A DNA stretch of 64,000 nt from Bacillota bacterium (GTDB taxonomy: Bacteria > Bacillota > Sulfobacillia > JAJYWN01 > JAJZPE01): NCBI GenBank assembly GCA_021811325.1, contig JAJZPE010000002.1, positions 10,157-74,156 on the forward strand. Direction: 5' to 3'. This document shows positions 1,741 to 9,828 of this stretch, in pieces. Within the stretch, counting starts at the first letter, position 1. Every line of letters begins with the position of its first letter. A model generated the notes under the pieces. That model was not told the origin of the DNA. It saw nothing but the letters and a program-made list of their open reading frames with translations, and did no database searches. The position numbers were made by a program, and so were the translations under genes.

Positions 1741-4386
1741 TCACCTGCCCTTCCGAGCTTTCTCTTGCAGCTCGTGGAGCTTGTTCAAGGCTTCCAGCGG
1801 CGACATCTCCATCAGCCGCAGCTGCCTGATCTCCTCCAAGAGCGGGTCGTCCCTGGTCTCGAACAGGGCGAGCTGGGTGATGTATCGGGGGCGGCGGGCG
1901 GCGGCCACCTCGCGCCGGCTCCGCCGGACCTCCTCGTCGGCCTCGATCGAGCTGAGGATGGCCTGCCCCCGCTCGACGACCTCCCGCGGCAGGCCGGCCA
2001 GACGGGCCACGTGCAAGCCGTAGCTGCGGTCGGTTCCCCCGGGGACGATCCGCCGCAGGAAGACGACCTCATCCCCCTTCTCGGCGACGGCCACCGACAG
2101 GTTGGTGACCCCGGGCACGAGACCCTCGAGTTCCGTGAGTTCGTGATAATGGGTCGCGAAGAGGGCCAACGACCCGACCCTGGCCGGGTCGGCCACGAAC
2201 TCGGCCACCGCCCAGGCGATCGACAGGCCGTCGAAGGTGCTCGTCCCGCGCCCGATCTCGTCCAGGATGACCAGGCTGTCCGGGGTGGCGTGGTGGAGGA
2301 TGTTGGCCGTCTCGACCATCTCCACCAGGAAGGTGGACTGCCCCATGGCCAGATCGTCGGTGGCCCCGACGCGGGTGAAGATCCGGTCGACCACGCCGAC
2401 CTCGGCCCGGTCCGCCGGCACGAAGCTGCCGGCCTGGGCCATCAGGACGATCAGGGCGACCTGCCGCATGTAGGTAGACTTCCCGGCCATGTTCGGGCCG
2501 GTGATGATCTGGAGGCGGCTCGCCTCCCGGTCGAGGAGGGTGTCGTTGGGGACGAAGGCCGTCTCGGTCAAGGACTGCTCGACCACCGGGTGACGCCCGG
2601 CGACGACCTCGATTCGCCCCGGCTCGCGCATCACCGGCTTGACGTAGCCATAGCGGGCGGCCGCTTCGGCCAGCGCCGAGAGGCCGTCGAGTTCGGCCAA
2701 GGCCCGGGCGTCGGCGAGGACCGCCGGGACACGCTCAGCGACCCGCGCCCGCACCTCCTGGAACAGGTCATACTCCAGCGCCGCCAGGCGCTCCTCGGCC
2801 CCCAGGACGAGAGCCTCCTTCTCCTTGAGCGCTGGGGTGACGAAACGCTCGGCGTTGACCAAGGTCTGCCGGCGCTCGTAGTCCGGCGGAACGCTGGTCA
2901 GGTTGGGCCGGGTGACCTCGATGTAATAGCCGAAGACCTTGTTGAACCCGACCTTCAGCGAGCGGATGCCGGTCCGCTCCCGCTCCCCCGCCTCGAGGGC
3001 GGCGATCCACGACTTGCCGTCCCGGCCCGCGTTGCGCAGTTCGTCCACCCTTCGGTCGTAGGCGCGACGGATGAGCCCACCGTCGCGAAGAGCCGCCGGG
3101 GCGTCGTCGTCGACGGCCCGGGCGATGAGCTCGGCCACGTCGGGCAGTGGGTCCAGGGCGGCGGCCAGCCGGGCCAGGCCGGGGCTGAGGGACTCCGCCC
3201 CACGGAGCGCCCCGATGAGCCGCGGCAGGGCCTCGAGCGACCAGCGGAGGGCCAGGAGGTCCCGGGCGTTGGCCGTGCCGTAAGCCACCCGGGCGGCCGG
3301 CCGCTCGAGGTCCCGCACCCCTTTCAGGTGCTCCCGCACATCGCTACGCAAGAAGGGCTGGTTGAGCAAGGCCTCCACGGCGTCATGGCGCTCGCGGATA
3401 GCGGTGACATCCCTCAGGGGGCGCTCGAGCCAGTCGCGGATCAGCCGCGCCCCCATGGCCGTGACCGTCAGGTCGAGGAGTTCGAGGAGCGTGCCGCGGC
3501 GGTTGCCATGGCGCAGGCTCCGGGTCAGCTCCAGGTTGCGCCGGGTGGTCGCGTCGAGGACCATGAACTGCGAGCGGTGATAGGTTGACAGGTGGGTCAG
3601 GTGGCTCAGGTCACTCCGCTGGGTCTCCCGAAGATAGGCCAGGGCTGCGCCGGCCGCGCCGACGGCCGCCGGGAGGCCGCCGCACCCGTAACCGTCGAGG
3701 GTGGCCACCCGGAAATGGCGGCGCAAGGCCTCGGCGGCGGTCGCCGGGTCGAACTCCGAGTCGGGCCGCGCGGTGACGGAAAGGCCGAGGCGCCCGCGGA
3801 CCTCGGCGGCCACCCGCGACGAGCCGGCCAGGGCTGCCGGCAGGAGGCACTCAGCCGGAGCGACCCGCCCCATCTCGTCAAGGAGGTCCTGCTCGGCGGA
3901 GGGGCCGGAGACTTGAGTGACGGAGAAGTCCCCGGTCGAGGAGTCGACGACGGCCAGCCCGTAGGCTGGCTCGCTGCCGCCTCCGGTCCGCCCCACGGCG
4001 GCGAGGAAATTGTGGCGCCGCTCGTCCAACAGCCCGGCTTCGGTCACCGTCCCCGGCGTGATGACCCGGGTCACCTCGCGCTTGACCAGGCCCTTGGCCG
4101 CCTTCGGGTCTTCCACCTGGTCGCAGAGGGCGACCTTGTAACCTTTTTCGAGGAGGCGGGCAATATAGCCCTCGGCCGAGTGGTAGGGGATGCCGGCCAT
4201 CGGTGCCCGCTGGCCGTTACCGGCGTCACGCCCGGTCAGGACGATGTCCAACTCGCGGGAGACCAACTGGGCGTCCTCGTAAAAGGTCTCGTAGAAGTCG
4301 CCCAGGCGAAAGAAGAGGACCTTGTCCCCGTGCTCGTCCTTGACCCGCCTGTACTGCTTCATCATCGGAGTGACCGGCTCGGTCAA
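1741..4386 (-). CDS. mutS: DNA mismatch repair protein MutS
   Basis: The 881-aa ORF begins MTEPVTPMMKQYRRVKDEHGDKVLFFRLGDFYETFYEDA, the canonical MutS N-terminus. A Walker A region (GPNMAGKSTYMRQ) is present. The start codon is TTG. The gene overlaps the miaB stop by 4 nt. Confidence 0.95.
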   Translation of the reverse strand: MTEPVTPMMKQYRRVKDEHGDKVLFFRLGDFYETFYEDAQLVSRELDIVLTGRDAGNGQRAPMAGIPYHSAEGYIARLLEKGYKVALCDQVEDPKAAKGLVKREVTRVITPGTVTEAGLLDERRHNFLAAVGRTGGGSEPAYGLAVVDSSTGDFSVTQVSGPSAEQDLLDEMGRVAPAECLLPAALAGSSRVAAEVRGRLGLSVTARPDSEFDPATAAEALRRHFRVATLDGYGCGGLPAAVGAAGAALAYLRETQRSDLSHLTHLSTYHRSQFMVLDATTRRNLELTRSLRHGNRRGTLLELLDLTVTAMGARLIRDWLERPLRDVTAIRERHDAVEALLNQPFLRSDVREHLKGVRDLERPAARVAYGTANARDLLALRWSLEALPRLIGALRGAESLSPGLARLAAALDPLPDVAELIARAVDDDAPAALRDGGLIRRAYDRRVDELRNAGRDGKSWIAALEAGERERTGIRSLKVGFNKVFGYYIEVTRPNLTSVPPDYERRQTLVNAERFVTPALKEKEALVLGAEERLAALEYDLFQEVRARVAERVPAVLADARALAELDGLSALAEAAARYGYVKPVMREPGRIEVVAGRHPVVEQSLTETAFVPNDTLLDREASRLQIITGPNMAGKSTYMRQVALIVLMAQAGSFVPADRAEVGVVDRIFTRVGATDDLAMGQSTFLVEMVETANILHHATPDSLVILDEIGRGTSTFDGLSIAWAVAEFVADPARVGSLALFATHYHELTELEGLVPGVTNLSVAVAEKGDEVVFLRRIVPGGTDRSYGLHVARLAGLPREVVERGQAILSSIEADEEVRRSRREVAAARRPRYITQLALFETRDDPLLEEIRQLRLMEMSPLEALNKLHELQEKARKGR

Positions 4387-7542: not shown

Positions 7543-8100
7543 TCAAAACTCCCACAGTCTGGCCCAGAACGACTTCTTGCGGTCCCGCCGGCTCCTCTGC
7601 GTCGTCAACTCGTAGCGGAGCGACTGAACCTCCTGCTGCGTCCGCAAGAGGGTGTTGAGCAGGCGCTCACGCTCCTCCCGCTGCCTTTCTTCCATCGTCT
7701 CGAAGTGCCGCACGAGCTCGGAGATCTTCCCCATCAGCCCGGTCATGTCGCTGAGGTCTGCGTCGTAGACGGCGGGCACCTCGGGCACCGGGGTGGGCGT
7801 GCTGAAGGCGATCACCGCGGACCGCGAACCGGCCGCCGCCTCGGCCGTGGCGAGCTGGGCCGAGTCGAGAGCGGCCTTGACCTCCTCGTCGCCCTTGCCA
7901 CTGTTGCGCAACTCCAGGATCTGCTGGAGCCGCTCGTAGGCGGCCACCGTCAGGTGTCTGGCCGGGACGTCCATACCCGCCTGCGCCGCCGCCAGTTGCT
8001 CTTCGAAGTCGGCCAGCAACGTTCGGAACACCCGCGGCGTCAGGTTCAGCAGCACGCAGGCTTCTTCAAAAGAGACGAACTCCTTGAGCCCACCGACCAT
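7543..8100 (-). CDS. Hypothetical protein with N-terminal HTH-like segment and C-terminal coiled coil
   Basis: The 185-aa ORF has GC3-rich codon usage. Its N-terminus (FVSFEEACVLLNLTPRVFRTLL) resembles excisionase/MerR-type helix-turn-helix. Its C-terminus (EERQREERERLLNTLLRTQQEVQSLRYELT) is a predicted coiled coil. It is divergent from spoIIP. Confidence 0.45.
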   Translation of the reverse strand: MVGGLKEFVSFEEACVLLNLTPRVFRTLLADFEEQLAAAQAGMDVPARHLTVAAYERLQQILELRNSGKGDEEVKAALDSAQLATAEAAAGSRSAVIAFSTPTPVPEVPAVYDADLSDMTGLMGKISELVRHFETMEERQREERERLLNTLLRTQQEVQSLRYELTTQRSRRDRKKSFWARLWEF

Positions 8101-8307: not shown

Positions 8308-9210
8308 ATGAAAGCGCGTCCACGTCTGGTCCTCCTCAGTCTGGCGGCGGCCGTAAGCGTGGCCACGGCGATCTACTGCGGCGTCACCTACGGGCCATGG
8401 TCCTCCGGGCCGGGCGTGGAAGGCGAGAGGACGCGAGGCTTCACCACCATCCTCAGTGAGGACCGTCAGGTGCTGCTTCGGACCGGTCTGGCCGTCTCCG
8501 CCGGGGACGAACTCATCCATGGCGCCGAGAACGCCCACTACATCATATTCAGGGTCCTCGGCCGGACGGCCGTAGCCCGCCTGGCGGCGCCGGTGCAGGC
8601 CACGACCAATGACCCACCGGCCACGGGGTCCAAGGCTATCGTCATCTATCACACCCATTCAGACGAGTCATACACCCCTGAGGATGGCACGCCGGTGATC
8701 CCCGGCAACGGGAGCATCTTCGAGGTCGGGATGACCTTCTCCGAAGCCCTGCGCGGCGAGGGCTTCGTCGTCGTCGTCGACCCGACCAGGCACGACCCCC
8801 ATGACAACCAGGCCTATATCCGTTCTCGGCGGACCGTCTTTCAGGACATCCAGATGTACAGCCCGTTCGCCGTCTTCGACCTCCACCGCGACTCCGCCCC
8901 GGCCTCCGACTACCTCATCAACATCGGCGGCCAGCAGGTCCAGGAGATCATGATCGTCGTCGGCCGGCAGAACCCGACCATGGCCGCCAACCTCTTCGTG
9001 GCCAAGCAACTCAAGGCGACCGCCGACACGCTCTACCCGGGGCTGGTCAAGGCCATCTTCATGGGCCACGGCAACTACAACCAGGACCTGATGGCCGCGG
9101 CCCTGCTGATCGAGTTCGGGACCGAGACCGCCCCCCGGGCCGCCGCCAACCAGTCGGCCAAGTTGATGGCCGACGTCGTCGCCCAGACCTTCAACCCCAC
9201 GGCGCCATGA
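8308..9210 (+). CDS. spoIIP: Stage II sporulation protein P (SpoIIP)-like
   Basis: It has a signal/TM N-terminus (MKARPRLVLLSLAAAVSVATAIY). It carries the SpoIIP hallmark motif IVIYHTHSDESYTP and a downstream amidase-like region (VVVVDPTRHD...FDLHRD). Its length is 300 aa. Confidence 0.72.
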   Translation: MKARPRLVLLSLAAAVSVATAIYCGVTYGPWSSGPGVEGERTRGFTTILSEDRQVLLRTGLAVSAGDELIHGAENAHYIIFRVLGRTAVARLAAPVQATTNDPPATGSKAIVIYHTHSDESYTPEDGTPVIPGNGSIFEVGMTFSEALRGEGFVVVVDPTRHDPHDNQAYIRSRRTVFQDIQMYSPFAVFDLHRDSAPASDYLINIGGQQVQEIMIVVGRQNPTMAANLFVAKQLKATADTLYPGLVKAIFMGHGNYNQDLMAAALLIEFGTETAPRAAANQSAKLMADVVAQTFNPTAP

Positions 9211-9315
9211 ACCCTCAGCGGCCGGTCACGCCCTTCGAGACGCACCCGCGACAGGCGTCGACACGGCGCAAGAAAGCGACACCCGGTCGTCGCCGGAAGC
9301 CGTTGAAGATTGTTC

Positions 9316-9348
9316 TAGCATTGGTTTTCTTCTCTCGGCCATAATATA
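9316..9348 (+). promoter_or_regulatory. Putative forespore (sigmaG/sigmaF-type) promoter for the SASP gene
   Basis: A -35-like GCATT (9318-9322) is followed by a 17-nt spacer and a -10-like CATAATA (9340-9346). This fits the sigmaG consensus GHATR-N17/18-CATxxTA. It lies ~35 nt upstream of the SASP start. Confidence 0.35.
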
Positions 9349-9379
9349 TCGTGACGTCACAGGCCCGGAGGTGAAAACC

Positions 9380-9718
9380 ATGCCGAATGAAAACCGCGAC
9401 CTGCTCGTCCCGCAATCCGGCCAGGCCCTCGAGAACCTGAAGCTCGAGGTGGCCAACGAGGTGGGAGTCGCCCAGAAGGCCGGGGTGACCGGTGGTCTTA
9501 CCGGCCAGAGCTATGAACAGGTCCTTGACCGCTACAAATGGGAAGTGGCCTCGGAACTGGGCATCCAGAACGAGATCAACCGCCGCGGATGGGCGGACAT
9601 GCCGAGCAAGCTGTGTGGCCAAGTCGGCGGCCGCGTCGGAGGGGCCATCGGCGGCCAAATGGTCAAGCGGATGATCACCCTTGCCGAGCAGCAACTCGGC
9701 CGGGACAGGCCAGGCTGA
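9380..9718 (+). CDS. ssp: Small acid-soluble spore protein, alpha/beta type (atypically long, internal helix duplication)
   Basis: MPNENRDLLVPQSGQALENLKLEVANEVGV ... GGQMVKRMITLAEQQLG matches alpha/beta-SASP conserved blocks (LLVPGAxxALDQMKYEIAxEFGV ... GGEITKRLVxLAEQQL). A ~35-aa insert (YEQVLDRYKWEVASELGI) repeats helix 1. The ATG at 9380 is preferred over the track GTG at 9371 because of spacing from GGAGGTG. Confidence 0.8.
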   Translation: MPNENRDLLVPQSGQALENLKLEVANEVGVAQKAGVTGGLTGQSYEQVLDRYKWEVASELGIQNEINRRGWADMPSKLCGQVGGRVGGAIGGQMVKRMITLAEQQLGRDRPG

Positions 9719-9756
9719 CCGGGACGGCCCGGACGGCAAGACCCAGTAAAGGCAAC

Positions 9757-9791
9757 AACGGCGGTCGCCGGGGGCGGCCGCCGTTCTCTTT
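9757..9791 (+). terminator. Putative terminator after the SASP gene
   Basis: GC hairpin ACGGCGGTCGCC-ggg-GGCGGCCGCCGT followed by TCTCTTTAC. Confidence 0.4.
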
Positions 9792-9828
9792 ACCGGCGTG
9801 ACCTCGGTCAAAACGCCTGCGGGCGCCT

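What the first reader, a model, noticed from the sequence alone, without database searches (positions are those of the whole stretch)
9316..9791. Atypically long alpha/beta-type SASP with an internal helix-1 duplication behind a forespore-type promoter
The product is 112 aa, against 60-75 aa for canonical alpha/beta SASPs. Both conserved SASP blocks are present, but a ~35-aa insert between them repeats the helix-1 consensus. Compare ALENLKLEVANEVGV with VLDRYKWEVASELGI. 

A -35 GCATT / 17 nt / -10 CATAATA arrangement upstream fits sigmaG/sigmaF forespore promoters. A terminator follows the gene. 

An internally duplicated DNA-binding SASP might bind DNA with altered stoichiometry or spacing. 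The gene lies between spoIIP and the pxp/kip operon.
Basis: partly seen in the sequence, partly recalled or inferred. Interest (0 to 1): 0.5.

Follow-up and report, generated by a model that had tools for sequence, protein, structure and literature searches.

The report
Spore DNA-binding protein with duplicated helix
This gene encodes an unusually long version of the small proteins that coat and protect DNA inside bacterial spores. Its first DNA-contacting helix is present twice and its glycine motif three times, and the same layout recurs in well over a hundred related database proteins without, as far as I could find, having been described.

Summary
ATG 9380 to stop 9718 (+) encodes a 112-aa protein that matches Pfam SASP (PF00269) at E=1e-27. 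A profile built from canonical SASPs matches it twice over helix 1, at residues 5-34 and again at 45-107. The self-match is significant (BLASTP E=9e-5; permutation p=2e-4).

Compared with 66-90-aa relatives there are two insertions. One is 32 aa and carries the extra helix-1 copy plus a variable Gly-rich linker.

This is a family, not a one-off. At least 120 database clusters, 18 species-representative genomes and 32 of the 150 best-scoring 50%-identity representatives share the layout. All named ones are annotated simply as alpha/beta-type SASP. Both helix copies are equally conserved.

AlphaFold2 with 120 family members gives a confident all-helical model (pLDDT 85) that contains an SspC-like helix-turn-helix.

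The sigmaG-like motif GCATT-17-CATAATA is the only such site in the 64 kb and is conserved in close orthologues. A GC-rich hairpin follows the gene. spoIIP and pxpCBA flank it.

Verdict: an undescribed architectural variant of a well-known protein family. Function is inferred, not shown. Interest is moderate.

The parts
9303..9317 (+). Conserved block TTGAAGATTGTTCTA directly upstream of the -35 element. Its function is unknown; it could be an UP-like or regulator site.
   Evidence: Conserved in the window, L001 and L085 while sequence further upstream diverges.
9318..9346 (+). Forespore-type (sigmaG/sigmaF-like) promoter motif: -35 GCATT (9318-9322), 17-nt spacer, -10 CATAATA (9340-9346).
   Evidence: Read directly. 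It is the only such motif in the 64 kb, with 0.04 expected. Both elements and the spacer length are conserved in orthologues L001 and L085, while the middle of the spacer varies. Motifs within 1 mismatch occur upstream of 4/20 long and 26/81 canonical SASP genes, against 1% of random windows. Local GC falls to 40-45% here, against 69% for the window.
9351..9360 (+). Perfect palindrome GTGACGTCAC at about the predicted transcription start and early 5' UTR.
   Evidence: Read directly. The TGACGTCA core is conserved in L001 and L085. On its own it is not above chance: 2 matches in the window against 0.9 expected.
9367..9373 (+). Ribosome-binding site GGAGGTG, 6 nt before the ATG.
   Evidence: Read directly. 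GGAGGTG is invariant in all five aligned orthologous upstream regions.
9380..9718 (+). Coding sequence of the 112-aa long alpha/beta-type SASP (stop codon included).
   Evidence: The identical protein is found on 12 or more contigs.
9401..9469 (+). Helix-1 copy A with the N-terminal LVP cap (residues 8-30, DLLVPQSGQALENLKLEVANEVGV). It contains the GPR-type site E23|V24-A25-x-E27.
   Evidence: The canonical-SASP profile hits residues 5-34. SspC aligns to residues 8-36. AF2 predicts a helix at 13-28. Mean pairwise identity in the family is 0.49.
9470..9511 (+). Variable Gly-rich linker (residues 31-44).
   Evidence: Mean pairwise identity is 0.15 and 21% of cells are gaps. The length between the two copies mostly varies from 12 to 25 aa.
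9512..9565 (+). Helix-1 copy B (residues 45-62, YEQVLDRYKWEVASELGI). It contains a second GPR-type site E55|V56-A57-x-E59.
   Evidence: The profile hits residues 45-107. The best Pfam stretch is 46-106. AF2 predicts a helix at 45-60. Mean pairwise identity is 0.50. DNA identity between copy A and copy B is only 28/48, so the duplication is old.
9566..9616 (+). Loop with a short helix, of the 'GW' type (residues 63-79, QNEINRRGWADMPSKLC).
   Evidence: Aligns with canonical GW-type relatives. AF2 predicts a helix at 63-69.
9617..9655 (+). Triplicated xxGG tetrads (residues 80-92, GQVGG RVGG AIGG). This is an 8-aa insertion relative to canonical SASPs.
   Evidence: Seen in the alignment. It is the most conserved region of the family, at 0.72 pairwise identity. 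142 of 148 proteins with two helix-1 copies carry three tetrads. AF2 predicts this stretch as helical, inside a helix spanning 76-108, at pLDDT above 90.
9656..9697 (+). Helix-2 core (residues 93-106, QMVKRMITLAEQQL).
   Evidence: SspC aligns to residues 80-108. Pairwise identity is 0.62.
9746..9793 (.). Hairpin between the convergent SASP and pxpC genes. A 13-bp GC stem (9757-9769/9773-9785) is flanked by GUAAAGG on one side and CUCUUUAC on the other. It is probably a bidirectional intrinsic terminator with weak U-tracts.
   Evidence: Fold of -43.6 kcal/mol, z=-3.1, with 0 of 200 shuffles folding as well. The consensus scan calls a terminator-like site on the minus strand only.

Best explanation

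How the architecture arose. An old in-frame tandem duplication produced two copies of the helix-1 block, joined by a floppy linker. A slippage-type triplication of the xxGG tetrad lengthened helix 2 by about two turns.

Expression. The gene is most likely transcribed in the forespore from a sigmaG-type promoter (sigmaF is not excluded) as a monocistronic mRNA that ends at the downstream hairpin.

Action. The protein is predicted to form a compact assembly of three main helices. The long Gly-lined C-terminal helix (residues 76-108) packs against both helix-1 copies. One helix-1 copy together with helix 2 reproduces the helix-turn-helix that SspC uses to lie on the DNA. The protein would therefore coat spore DNA as canonical SASPs do, but with a larger protein surface per molecule, and probably a longer footprint or a built-in substitute for a neighbour's helix 1.

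Turnover. At germination it would be cut by the germination protease GPR at two E|(V/I)-A-x-E sites (after E23 and after E55). This would give fragments of 23, 32 and 57 aa.

What is shown and what is inferred. Shown: family membership, the duplication, the second insertion, their conservation and coupling, the promoter-like motif and its conservation in close orthologues, and the predicted fold. Inferred: forespore expression, DNA binding, the packing role of the Gly tetrads, GPR cleavage, and any change in stoichiometry.
For: Family membership.
- Pfam SASP E=9.6e-28.
- SspC (2z3x) matches both the N- and the C-terminal blocks.

Duplication.
- A canonical-SASP profile matches helix 1 twice in the window protein and in all 10 long homologues first found.
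- The self-match gives E=9e-5 and p=2e-4.
- The copies are only 28/48 identical at the DNA level, and no DNA repeat is detected between them. The duplication is therefore old and not an assembly artefact.

Selection.
- Copy A and copy B are equally conserved (0.49 and 0.50). The linker is not (0.15). The GG tetrads are the most conserved part (0.72).
- 142 of 148 proteins with two copies have three tetrads.

Family size.
- The 120 best-scoring clusters at 90% identity are all full-length long forms.
- 32 of the 150 best-scoring 50%-identity representatives have two helix-1 copies, among 1586 SASP-like hits.
- 18 species-representative genomes carry it (17 intact genes plus one frameshifted copy), including a Symbiobacterium thermophilum MAG and Fermentithermobacillaceae. 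Protein searches add Thermaerobacter and Thermodesulfitimonas.
- It coexists with canonical SASPs in the same MAG (L001 and L004 are long, L017 is canonical).

Fold.
- AF2 with 120 long forms gives pLDDT 85 and pTM 0.68, with helices at 13-28, 45-60, 63-69 and 76-108.

Promoter.
- The motif is unique in the window and conserved as a phylogenetic footprint.
- The motif class is enriched upstream of SASP genes: 20-32% within 1 mismatch, against 1% of random windows.
- SASP genes are sigmaG-dependent in studied species (PMC8999374, PMC3533761).

GPR and context.
- The conserved 'EIA' sequence of SASPs is what GPR cleaves (PMC8452069). E-[VILF]-A-x-E is kept at each of the two sites in 68% of family members.
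- The sporulation gene spoIIP lies next door, and this synteny holds in L001, L002, L085 and L090.
Against: - There is no expression, DNA-binding or cleavage data for any member of this family.
- The AF2 model is a monomer without DNA, whereas canonical SASPs fold only on DNA.
- The coevolution analysis is noisy (effective sequence number 109) and gives mixed contacts.
- The -35 element has one mismatch to the recalled consensus. The strict promoter motif is absent upstream of most long forms in other clades.
- The terminator U-tract is weak.
- About a third of family members lack the E-x-A-x-E pattern at one site or the other.
- The organism is a metagenome-assembled genome whose ability to sporulate is unknown.
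Confidence: 0.65

Rival explanations
1. The protein is mainly an amino-acid store, as the gamma-type SASP is functionally. The duplicated block serves to provide two GPR sites, and the protein binds DNA weakly or not at all.
For: There are two GPR-type E|(V/I)A-x-E sites. From my own knowledge, gamma-type SASPs also carry repeated GPR sites. The composition is rich in Gly, Gln and Leu.
Against: All the blocks that define DNA-binding alpha/beta SASPs are kept under strong constraint. The GG tetrads and helix 2 are the most conserved parts. The model contains the SspC-like helix-turn-helix. Storage alone would not explain why the helix duplication and the tetrad triplication go together.
Confidence: 0.1
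2. Copy A is an intramolecular mimic or pro-segment. It occupies the helix-2 surface and keeps the protein soluble or inactive until DNA or another protein displaces it. On DNA the working unit would be copy B plus helix 2.
Against: Copy A is as conserved as copy B and keeps the LVP cap typical of functional SASP N-termini. There is no precedent for this in SASPs. The inference rests on a model without DNA.
Confidence: 0.12
3. The protein has a regulatory or checkpoint role in sporulation rather than giving bulk DNA protection, as reported for C. difficile SspA and SspB.
For: [quoted passage not shown] The gene sits next to spoIIP in several lineages.
Against: Nothing in the sequence points to sequence-specific binding. 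Synteny with spoIIP is lost in Thermaerobacter. In C. difficile the regulatory role comes in addition to protection, not in place of it.
Confidence: 0.08
4. The long protein is an artefact: a mis-assembly, a fusion of two SASP genes, or a wrong gene call.
For: SASP genes often sit in tandem (for example L014, L019, L020, L027). One long form, L008, is frameshifted.
Against: The identical protein occurs on 12 or more independent contigs. The same uninterrupted architecture appears in more than 150 diverged sequences, including complete genomes of isolates. There is only one C-terminal block, so this is not a fusion of two genes. The two copies share no DNA-level repeat.
Confidence: 0.01

Closest known systems
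Major alpha/beta-type SASPs (B. subtilis SspA, SspB, SspC; SspC-DNA complex, PDB 2z3x; Pfam PF00269)
   Same: - The same two conserved blocks are present: a helix 1 with the K-x-E-(I/V)-A-x-E-x-G motif that holds the GPR site, and GG followed by a helix 2 with the (I/M)-(T/V)-K-R motif.
- The model superposes on SspC at 2.4 A over 55 residues.
- The promoter is of the sigmaG type, and the gene is monocistronic with its own terminator.
   Different: - It is 112 aa, against the 60-75 aa usually quoted (PMC8999374).
- The helix-1 block is present twice, with a variable linker between the copies.
- The xxGG tetrad is present three times.
- The loop is longer, of the 'GW' type, and holds a short extra helix.
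- The model is a confident fold of three main helices even without DNA.
SspF/Ssp4-type alpha/beta SASPs (for example C. perfringens Ssp4)
   Same: These are longer than the major SASPs and have extra predicted helices. Ssp4 is modelled with five helices, of which alpha2-alpha4 form the DNA-binding unit (PMC12552601). The C-terminal module of the window protein has the longer loop with a short helix between helix 1 and helix 2. Galperin et al. place such forms in a COG separate from SspA-D (PMC3533761).
   Different: No duplication of the helix-1 block and no tripled GG tetrad is described for SspF or Ssp4. I did not compare the window protein directly with an authenticated SspF or Ssp4 sequence, so the subfamily assignment is a lead and not a test.
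Gamma-type SASP (SspE of Bacilli)
   Same: It has internal repeats that each carry a GPR cleavage site (my own knowledge). It is also degraded at germination.
   Different: It is not homologous to alpha/beta SASPs, does not bind DNA, and is restricted to Bacilli (PMC3533761). The window protein is clearly PF00269.
Other multi-copy SASP architectures found here (P0082, P0123, P0139, P0057, P0058, P0070)
   Same: All have repeated SASP elements within one polypeptide.
   Different: - P0082 has a helix-1 duplication that looks younger, with a single GG tetrad.
- P0123 and P0139 repeat further parts of the SASP domain. P0123 has two near-complete tandem domains. P0139 repeats the loop-to-helix-2 part.
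- P0057, P0058 and P0070 carry three helix-1-like motifs.

The window protein belongs to the main group, with two helix-1 copies and three tetrads.

Membership tests
alpha/beta-type SASP (Pfam PF00269) | Significant match to the family profile | tested here: met
   96.4 bits against a gathering score of 22, E=9.6e-28. phmmer to SspC 2z3x gives E=1.8e-7.
alpha/beta-type SASP (Pfam PF00269) | N-terminal conserved block K-x-E-(I/V)-A-x-E-x-G, which contains the GPR cleavage site ('EIA') | tested here: met
   The block is present twice: K21-L-E-V-A-N-E-V-G and K53-W-E-V-A-S-E-L-G. The statement that 'EIA' is the GPR site comes from PMC8452069. Here the residue is V instead of I, as in the canonical relatives of this clade.
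alpha/beta-type SASP (Pfam PF00269) | C-terminal conserved block G-x-(V/I)-G-G-x-(I/M)-(T/V)-K-R-(L/M)-(V/I) | tested here: met
   G88-A-I-G-G-Q-M-V-K-R-M-I is present and is preceded by two extra xxGG tetrads. G91 corresponds to SspC G52, whose mutation abolishes DNA binding (my own knowledge).
alpha/beta-type SASP (Pfam PF00269) | Small size, 60-75 aa | tested here: not met
   The protein is 112 aa. Family members with this layout are 101-142 aa. The 60-75 aa range is from PMC8999374.
alpha/beta-type SASP (Pfam PF00269) | Helix-turn-helix fold as in DNA-bound SspC | tested here: met
alpha/beta-type SASP (Pfam PF00269) | Forespore-specific, sigmaG-dependent transcription | tested here: inconclusive
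   The motif GCATT-17-CATAATA is unique in the window and conserved in close orthologues. It has one mismatch in the -35 element. No expression data exist, and sigmaF and sigmaG recognise similar elements (PMC3174212).
alpha/beta-type SASP (Pfam PF00269) | Non-specific binding of double-stranded DNA, abundance in the spore core, acid solubility, and protection against UV and heat | not testable with these tools
   These need biochemistry or genetics.
alpha/beta-type SASP (Pfam PF00269) | Degradation by the germination protease GPR | not testable with these tools
   Only the motif is present, and it occurs twice. No gpr gene was looked for outside the immediate neighbourhood.
SspF/Ssp4 subfamily | Closer to SspF/Ssp4 than to SspA-D (separate COG), with a longer loop between helix 1 and helix 2 | not tested
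   The loop of the C-terminal module is longer and of the 'GW' type. No authenticated SspF or Ssp4 sequence was compared. NCBIfam gave no hit at all.

The most novel reading that the evidence does not exclude
The long forms could be a distinct structural class of SASP. In this reading they are pre-folded, single-chain units of three main helices. A Gly-lined, lengthened helix 2 serves as the spine for two helix-1 modules, so that one molecule covers roughly the DNA length, or supplies the protein-protein contacts, that canonical SASPs achieve only as dimers. This would change the binding stoichiometry and cooperativity. It would also make the protein stable without DNA, which might be an adaptation in the mostly thermophilic lineages where named members occur (Thermaerobacter, Symbiobacterium, Thermodesulfitimonas, Fermentithermobacillus).
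Probability: 0.25. Interest if true: 0.55.

Novelty: new variant of a known kind. Interest (0 to 1): 0.38.

Why it matters
Alpha/beta-type SASPs are the main reason spore DNA survives UV, heat and desiccation. Nearly all mechanistic knowledge comes from the proteins of Bacillus and Clostridium, of about 70 aa, and from one crystal structure.

A conserved subfamily with an extra helix-1 module and a tripled copy of the glycine motif offers a natural experiment. That motif includes the glycine whose mutation abolishes DNA binding in SspC. The subfamily could show which parts of the protein set the footprint, the cooperativity and the folding-upon-binding.

It also matters for annotation. These proteins are currently labelled like ordinary SASPs, and NCBIfam has no model that hits them.

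The practical importance is modest unless the altered DNA-binding mode is demonstrated.

Tried and rejected
- AF2 with a shallow alignment of 35 mixed sequences gave pLDDT 50 and was discarded. Only the alignment of 120 long forms gave a usable model.
- Foldseek against the PDB gave no significant hit.
- The afdb50 library was not available.
- NCBIfam gave no hit even at E=1.
- Rfam and tRNA scans of the window found nothing.
- The sigma-70 promoter scan found nothing, and the simple terminator scan missed the + strand hairpin.
- The strict sigmaG pattern is absent upstream of most long forms in other clades. A mismatch-tolerant scan was needed to see enrichment.
- I tested whether the long form goes with high GC. 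It does not: loci range from 41% to 74% GC, with medians of 0.61 and 0.55 for long and canonical loci.
- Mean-field coevolution analysis on 158 sequences (effective number 109) was too noisy to fix the helix packing.
- I tried to decide between one origin and several by comparing C-terminal modules. The result is unresolved.
- Literature searches for a described duplicated or long SASP found nothing relevant. The SspC-DNA structure paper (PNAS 2008) is not in the library, so structural details of SspC are from memory.
- The palindrome TGACGTCA is not above chance on its own.
Full report
**1. What is at the coordinates**

The + strand carries an ORF from ATG 9380 to the stop at 9716-9718, giving 112 aa. 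The ORF lister starts it at GTG 9371.

The identical protein is in public databases on at least 12 contigs. NCBI names it 'MAG: small, acid-soluble spore protein, alpha/beta type [Bacillota bacterium]'. The window is 69% G+C.

**2. Family membership**

Pfam SASP (PF00269) matches at E=9.6e-28, scoring 96.4 bits against a cut-off of 22. The match comes in two stretches, the better one covering residues 46-106.

The only solved relative is B. subtilis SspC bound to DNA (PDB 2z3x). It aligns to residues 8-36 (helix 1) and, separately, to residues 80-108 (GG motif plus helix 2). NCBIfam has no model that hits the protein.

**3. The duplication is real**

I built a profile from the 25 canonical homologues (66-91 aa) of the first search.
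- It matches the window protein at residues 5-34 (profile positions 4-33) and again at residues 45-107 (profile positions 12-66).
- It shows the same double match in all ten long homologues.
- BLASTP of residues 1-40 against 41-112 aligns QALENLKLEVANEVGV with QVLDRYKWEVASELGI: 8/16 identical, 12/16 positive, E=9e-5.
- In 5000 shuffles of the rest of the protein, the copy A segment reached the observed score once, giving p=2e-4.

At the DNA level the two copies are 28/48 identical, and no direct repeat is detected between them. The event is therefore old and is not an assembly artefact.

**4. Two insertions, not one**

Aligned with canonical relatives such as MARRRRRRSLVPQAEQVLDRYKYEVASELGLQNQIQTGGWNNLTTREVGQIGGQMVKRMIKDAEQQL, the long forms have two insertions.
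- A 32-aa insertion after the LVP-x-A cap. It holds one helix-1 copy and a Gly/Pro-rich linker.
- An 8-aa insertion that turns a single G-x-(I/V)-G-G into G-Q-V-G-G-R-V-G-G-A-I-G-G, that is, three xxGG tetrads.

From my own knowledge, the first G of the GG directly before helix 2 corresponds to SspC G52, whose change to Ala abolishes DNA binding.

**5. It is a family**

- The first protein search gave ten long forms of 105-134 aa, including a Thermaerobacter RefSeq protein.
- A scan of one genome per species, followed by ORF extraction and profile classification, found the architecture in 17 loci, plus one frameshifted copy (L008). They include a Symbiobacterium thermophilum MAG, Symbiobacteriaceae, Candidatus Fermentithermobacillus carboniphilus and many unnamed Bacillota MAGs.
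- A profile search of 1.84 billion 50%-identity representatives found 1586 SASP-like proteins. Among the 150 best-scoring, 32 have two profile-detectable helix-1 copies.
- A profile search of the 90%-identity clusters returned 120 top clusters that are all full-length long forms: 101-142 aa, at least 82% query coverage. They include Thermodesulfitimonas autotrophica and Symbiobacteriia. Wherever a name exists, it is just 'alpha/beta-type SASP'.

The two insertions go together. Of 148 proteins with two helix-1 copies, 142 have three tetrads. Single-copy proteins mostly have one. This sample was drawn with a profile that contains both features, so the association is descriptive only.

Conservation was measured across 158 long forms as mean pairwise identity:

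| Region | Identity |
|---|---|
| Copy A | 0.49 |
| Linker | 0.15 |
| Copy B | 0.50 |
| GG tetrads | 0.72 |
| Helix 2 | 0.62 |

The linker also varies in length. Both helix-1 copies are thus maintained by selection.

The closest relative MAG carries the orthologue (L001, 79% identity), a second long paralogue (L004) and a canonical SASP (L017). Long and short forms therefore coexist in one genome.

**6. Predicted structure**

With a shallow mixed alignment AF2 was uninformative, at pLDDT 50. With 120 long forms it gave mean pLDDT 85 and pTM 0.68. The predicted helices are 13-28 (copy A), 45-60 (copy B), a short helix at 63-69, and one long helix at 76-108. The long helix runs through the Gly tetrads at pLDDT above 90.

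That identity can be reached only if SspC helix 1 is matched to copy A. The maximum is 24/55 (44%) for copy A, against 18/55 (33%) for copy B. In the DNA-free model, then, copy A and the C-terminal helix seem to form the SspC-like helix-turn-helix, with copy B and the short helix as an inserted module. By sequence, however, the canonical relatives align best to copy B. I had no access to coordinates, so this is an inference.

A mean-field coevolution analysis (effective sequence number 109) gave top pairs linking copy A to copy B, copy B to the tetrads, and both copies to helix 2. This is compatible with a compact bundle but too noisy to decide the packing.

A lengthened helix whose Gly residues recur with tetrad spacing would offer a flat face for close packing against another helix or against the DNA backbone. 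That would explain why the tetrad expansion and the extra helix travel together. This is my interpretation.

**7. Transcription signals**

The motif is GCATT (9318-9322), 17 nt, CATAATA (9340-9346). The -10 element fits the sigmaG consensus I recall (GHATR-17/18-CATXHTA) perfectly. The -35 element has one mismatch.

- The pattern G[ACT]ATN-N17-18-CATN[ACT]TA occurs once in the whole window on both strands, where 0.04 matches are expected. It sits in a local dip to 40-45% G+C.
- In the three close orthologous loci (window; L001, 79% identity; L085, 75% identity) the block TTGAAGAaTGTTCTA-GCATT-GGTTTT...GGC-CATA(A/C)TA...CTGACGTCAC is conserved. Meanwhile the middle of the spacer and the sequence further upstream diverge, which is a typical promoter footprint.
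- More distant orthologues have looser versions, for example Thermaerobacter GCATC-17-CAAACTA.
- Motifs within one mismatch lie upstream of 4/20 long-form and 26/81 canonical SASP genes, against 1% of random windows from the same loci.

SASP genes are sigmaG-dependent in the species studied (PMC8999374, PMC3533761). SigmaF and sigmaG recognise similar elements (PMC3174212), so the two cannot be told apart here.

Downstream, a 13-bp perfect GC-rich stem (9757-9769/9773-9785) is flanked by GUAAAGG and CUCUUUAC. The region folds at -43.6 kcal/mol, z=-3.1. It lies between convergent genes and is probably a bidirectional terminator. The U-tract is weak, and the consensus scan called only the minus-strand side.

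**8. Neighbourhood**

Upstream on the same strand lies SpoIIP (8308-9210). Downstream and convergent lie CT_A_B, CT_C_D and LamB_YcsF, that is, pxpC, pxpB and pxpA. The arrangement spoIIP, then SASP, then convergent pxpCBA is kept in L001, L002 and L085. In L090 spoIIP-SASP is kept, but the convergent gene downstream runs off the contig and is unidentified. The pxp side alone is kept in the S. thermophilum MAG (L007) and in L008. In Thermaerobacter the gene sits elsewhere, between a PBP5-type carboxypeptidase and a QueG-like gene.

**9. Mechanism proposed**

See the best explanation for the full statement. In short:
- forespore expression;
- coating of spore DNA by a SASP of three main helices, in which a lengthened Gly-lined helix 2 is the spine for two helix-1 modules;
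- removal at germination by GPR at two E|(V/I)-A-x-E sites, after E23 and after E55.

The conserved 'EIA' sequence is the GPR site of SASPs (PMC8452069). The pattern is kept at each of the two sites in 68% of family members.

**10. Novelty**

The protein is a clear member of a very well-known family and is annotated as such. What appears to be undescribed is the architecture: a helix-1 duplication coupled to a tetrad triplication, conserved across many lineages.

My literature searches found no description of it. Comparative surveys of sporulation genes treat alpha/beta SASPs only at the COG level (PMC3533761; bioRxiv 10.1101/2022.02.25.481979). The library lacks most subscription-journal papers, so an earlier mention cannot be excluded.

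I rate it a new variant of a known kind, of moderate interest.

**11. Open point**

Long forms occur with two loop types between copy B and the tetrads: 'GW' and 'YNG'. In the C-terminal module, most long forms are closer to a canonical SASP than to any long form of the other loop type. Three readings remain possible: the architecture arose more than once, paralogues exchange modules, or short forms arise by loss. The sequences are too short and the sampling too biased to decide.

Noticed in passing
window 9351-9360: The perfect 10-bp palindrome GTGACGTCAC sits at about the predicted transcription start of the SASP gene. Its TGACGTCA core is conserved in orthologues L001 and L085. It could be a regulator site, but the 8-mer alone is not above chance in the window (2 found, 0.9 expected).
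   Followed up: partly
window 7543-8100 (minus strand): A 185-aa protein with no Pfam hit on record lies divergent from spoIIP. It is conserved in the same position in L001, L085 and L090, and more weakly in L002 and the Symbiobacterium thermophilum MAG L007. Its function is unknown.
   Followed up: no
L008 3793-4213: The long-form SASP in MAG JAXGPL01 is split over two overlapping frames. The N-terminal helix-1 copy is in one frame and the rest is in another. This is either a frameshift pseudogene or a sequencing error.
   Followed up: no
proteins P0082, P0123, P0139, P0057, P0058, P0070: Other multi-copy SASP architectures exist. P0082 has a helix-1 duplication that looks younger, with a single GG tetrad. 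P0123 and P0139 repeat further parts of the SASP domain (two near-complete domains in P0123; the loop-to-helix-2 part in P0139). P0057, P0058 and P0070 carry three helix-1-like motifs.
   Followed up: no
L013 ~3949-3980 and L018 ~3952-3970: In two Fermentithermobacillaceae genomes the long-form gene has no ATG, GTG or TTG where its relatives start with TTG. L013 reads TTA and L018 reads CTG at or near that place. This suggests an unusual start codon or a different start.
   Followed up: no
long-form family: Long forms come with two loop types, 'GW' and 'YNG'. Their C-terminal modules are often closer to canonical SASPs than to long forms of the other loop type. This hints at multiple origins or at module exchange between paralogues.
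   Followed up: partly
window 1-64000: There are no tRNA genes and no Rfam family above its gathering score in the whole 64-kb window. NCBIfam has no model that hits the SASP, although NCBI names it as one.
   Followed up: yes
protein P0114: A 1624-aa protein scored E=1.4e-12 against the long-SASP profile with no reportable matched stretch. I did not inspect it. It may be a spurious composition-driven score.
   Followed up: no
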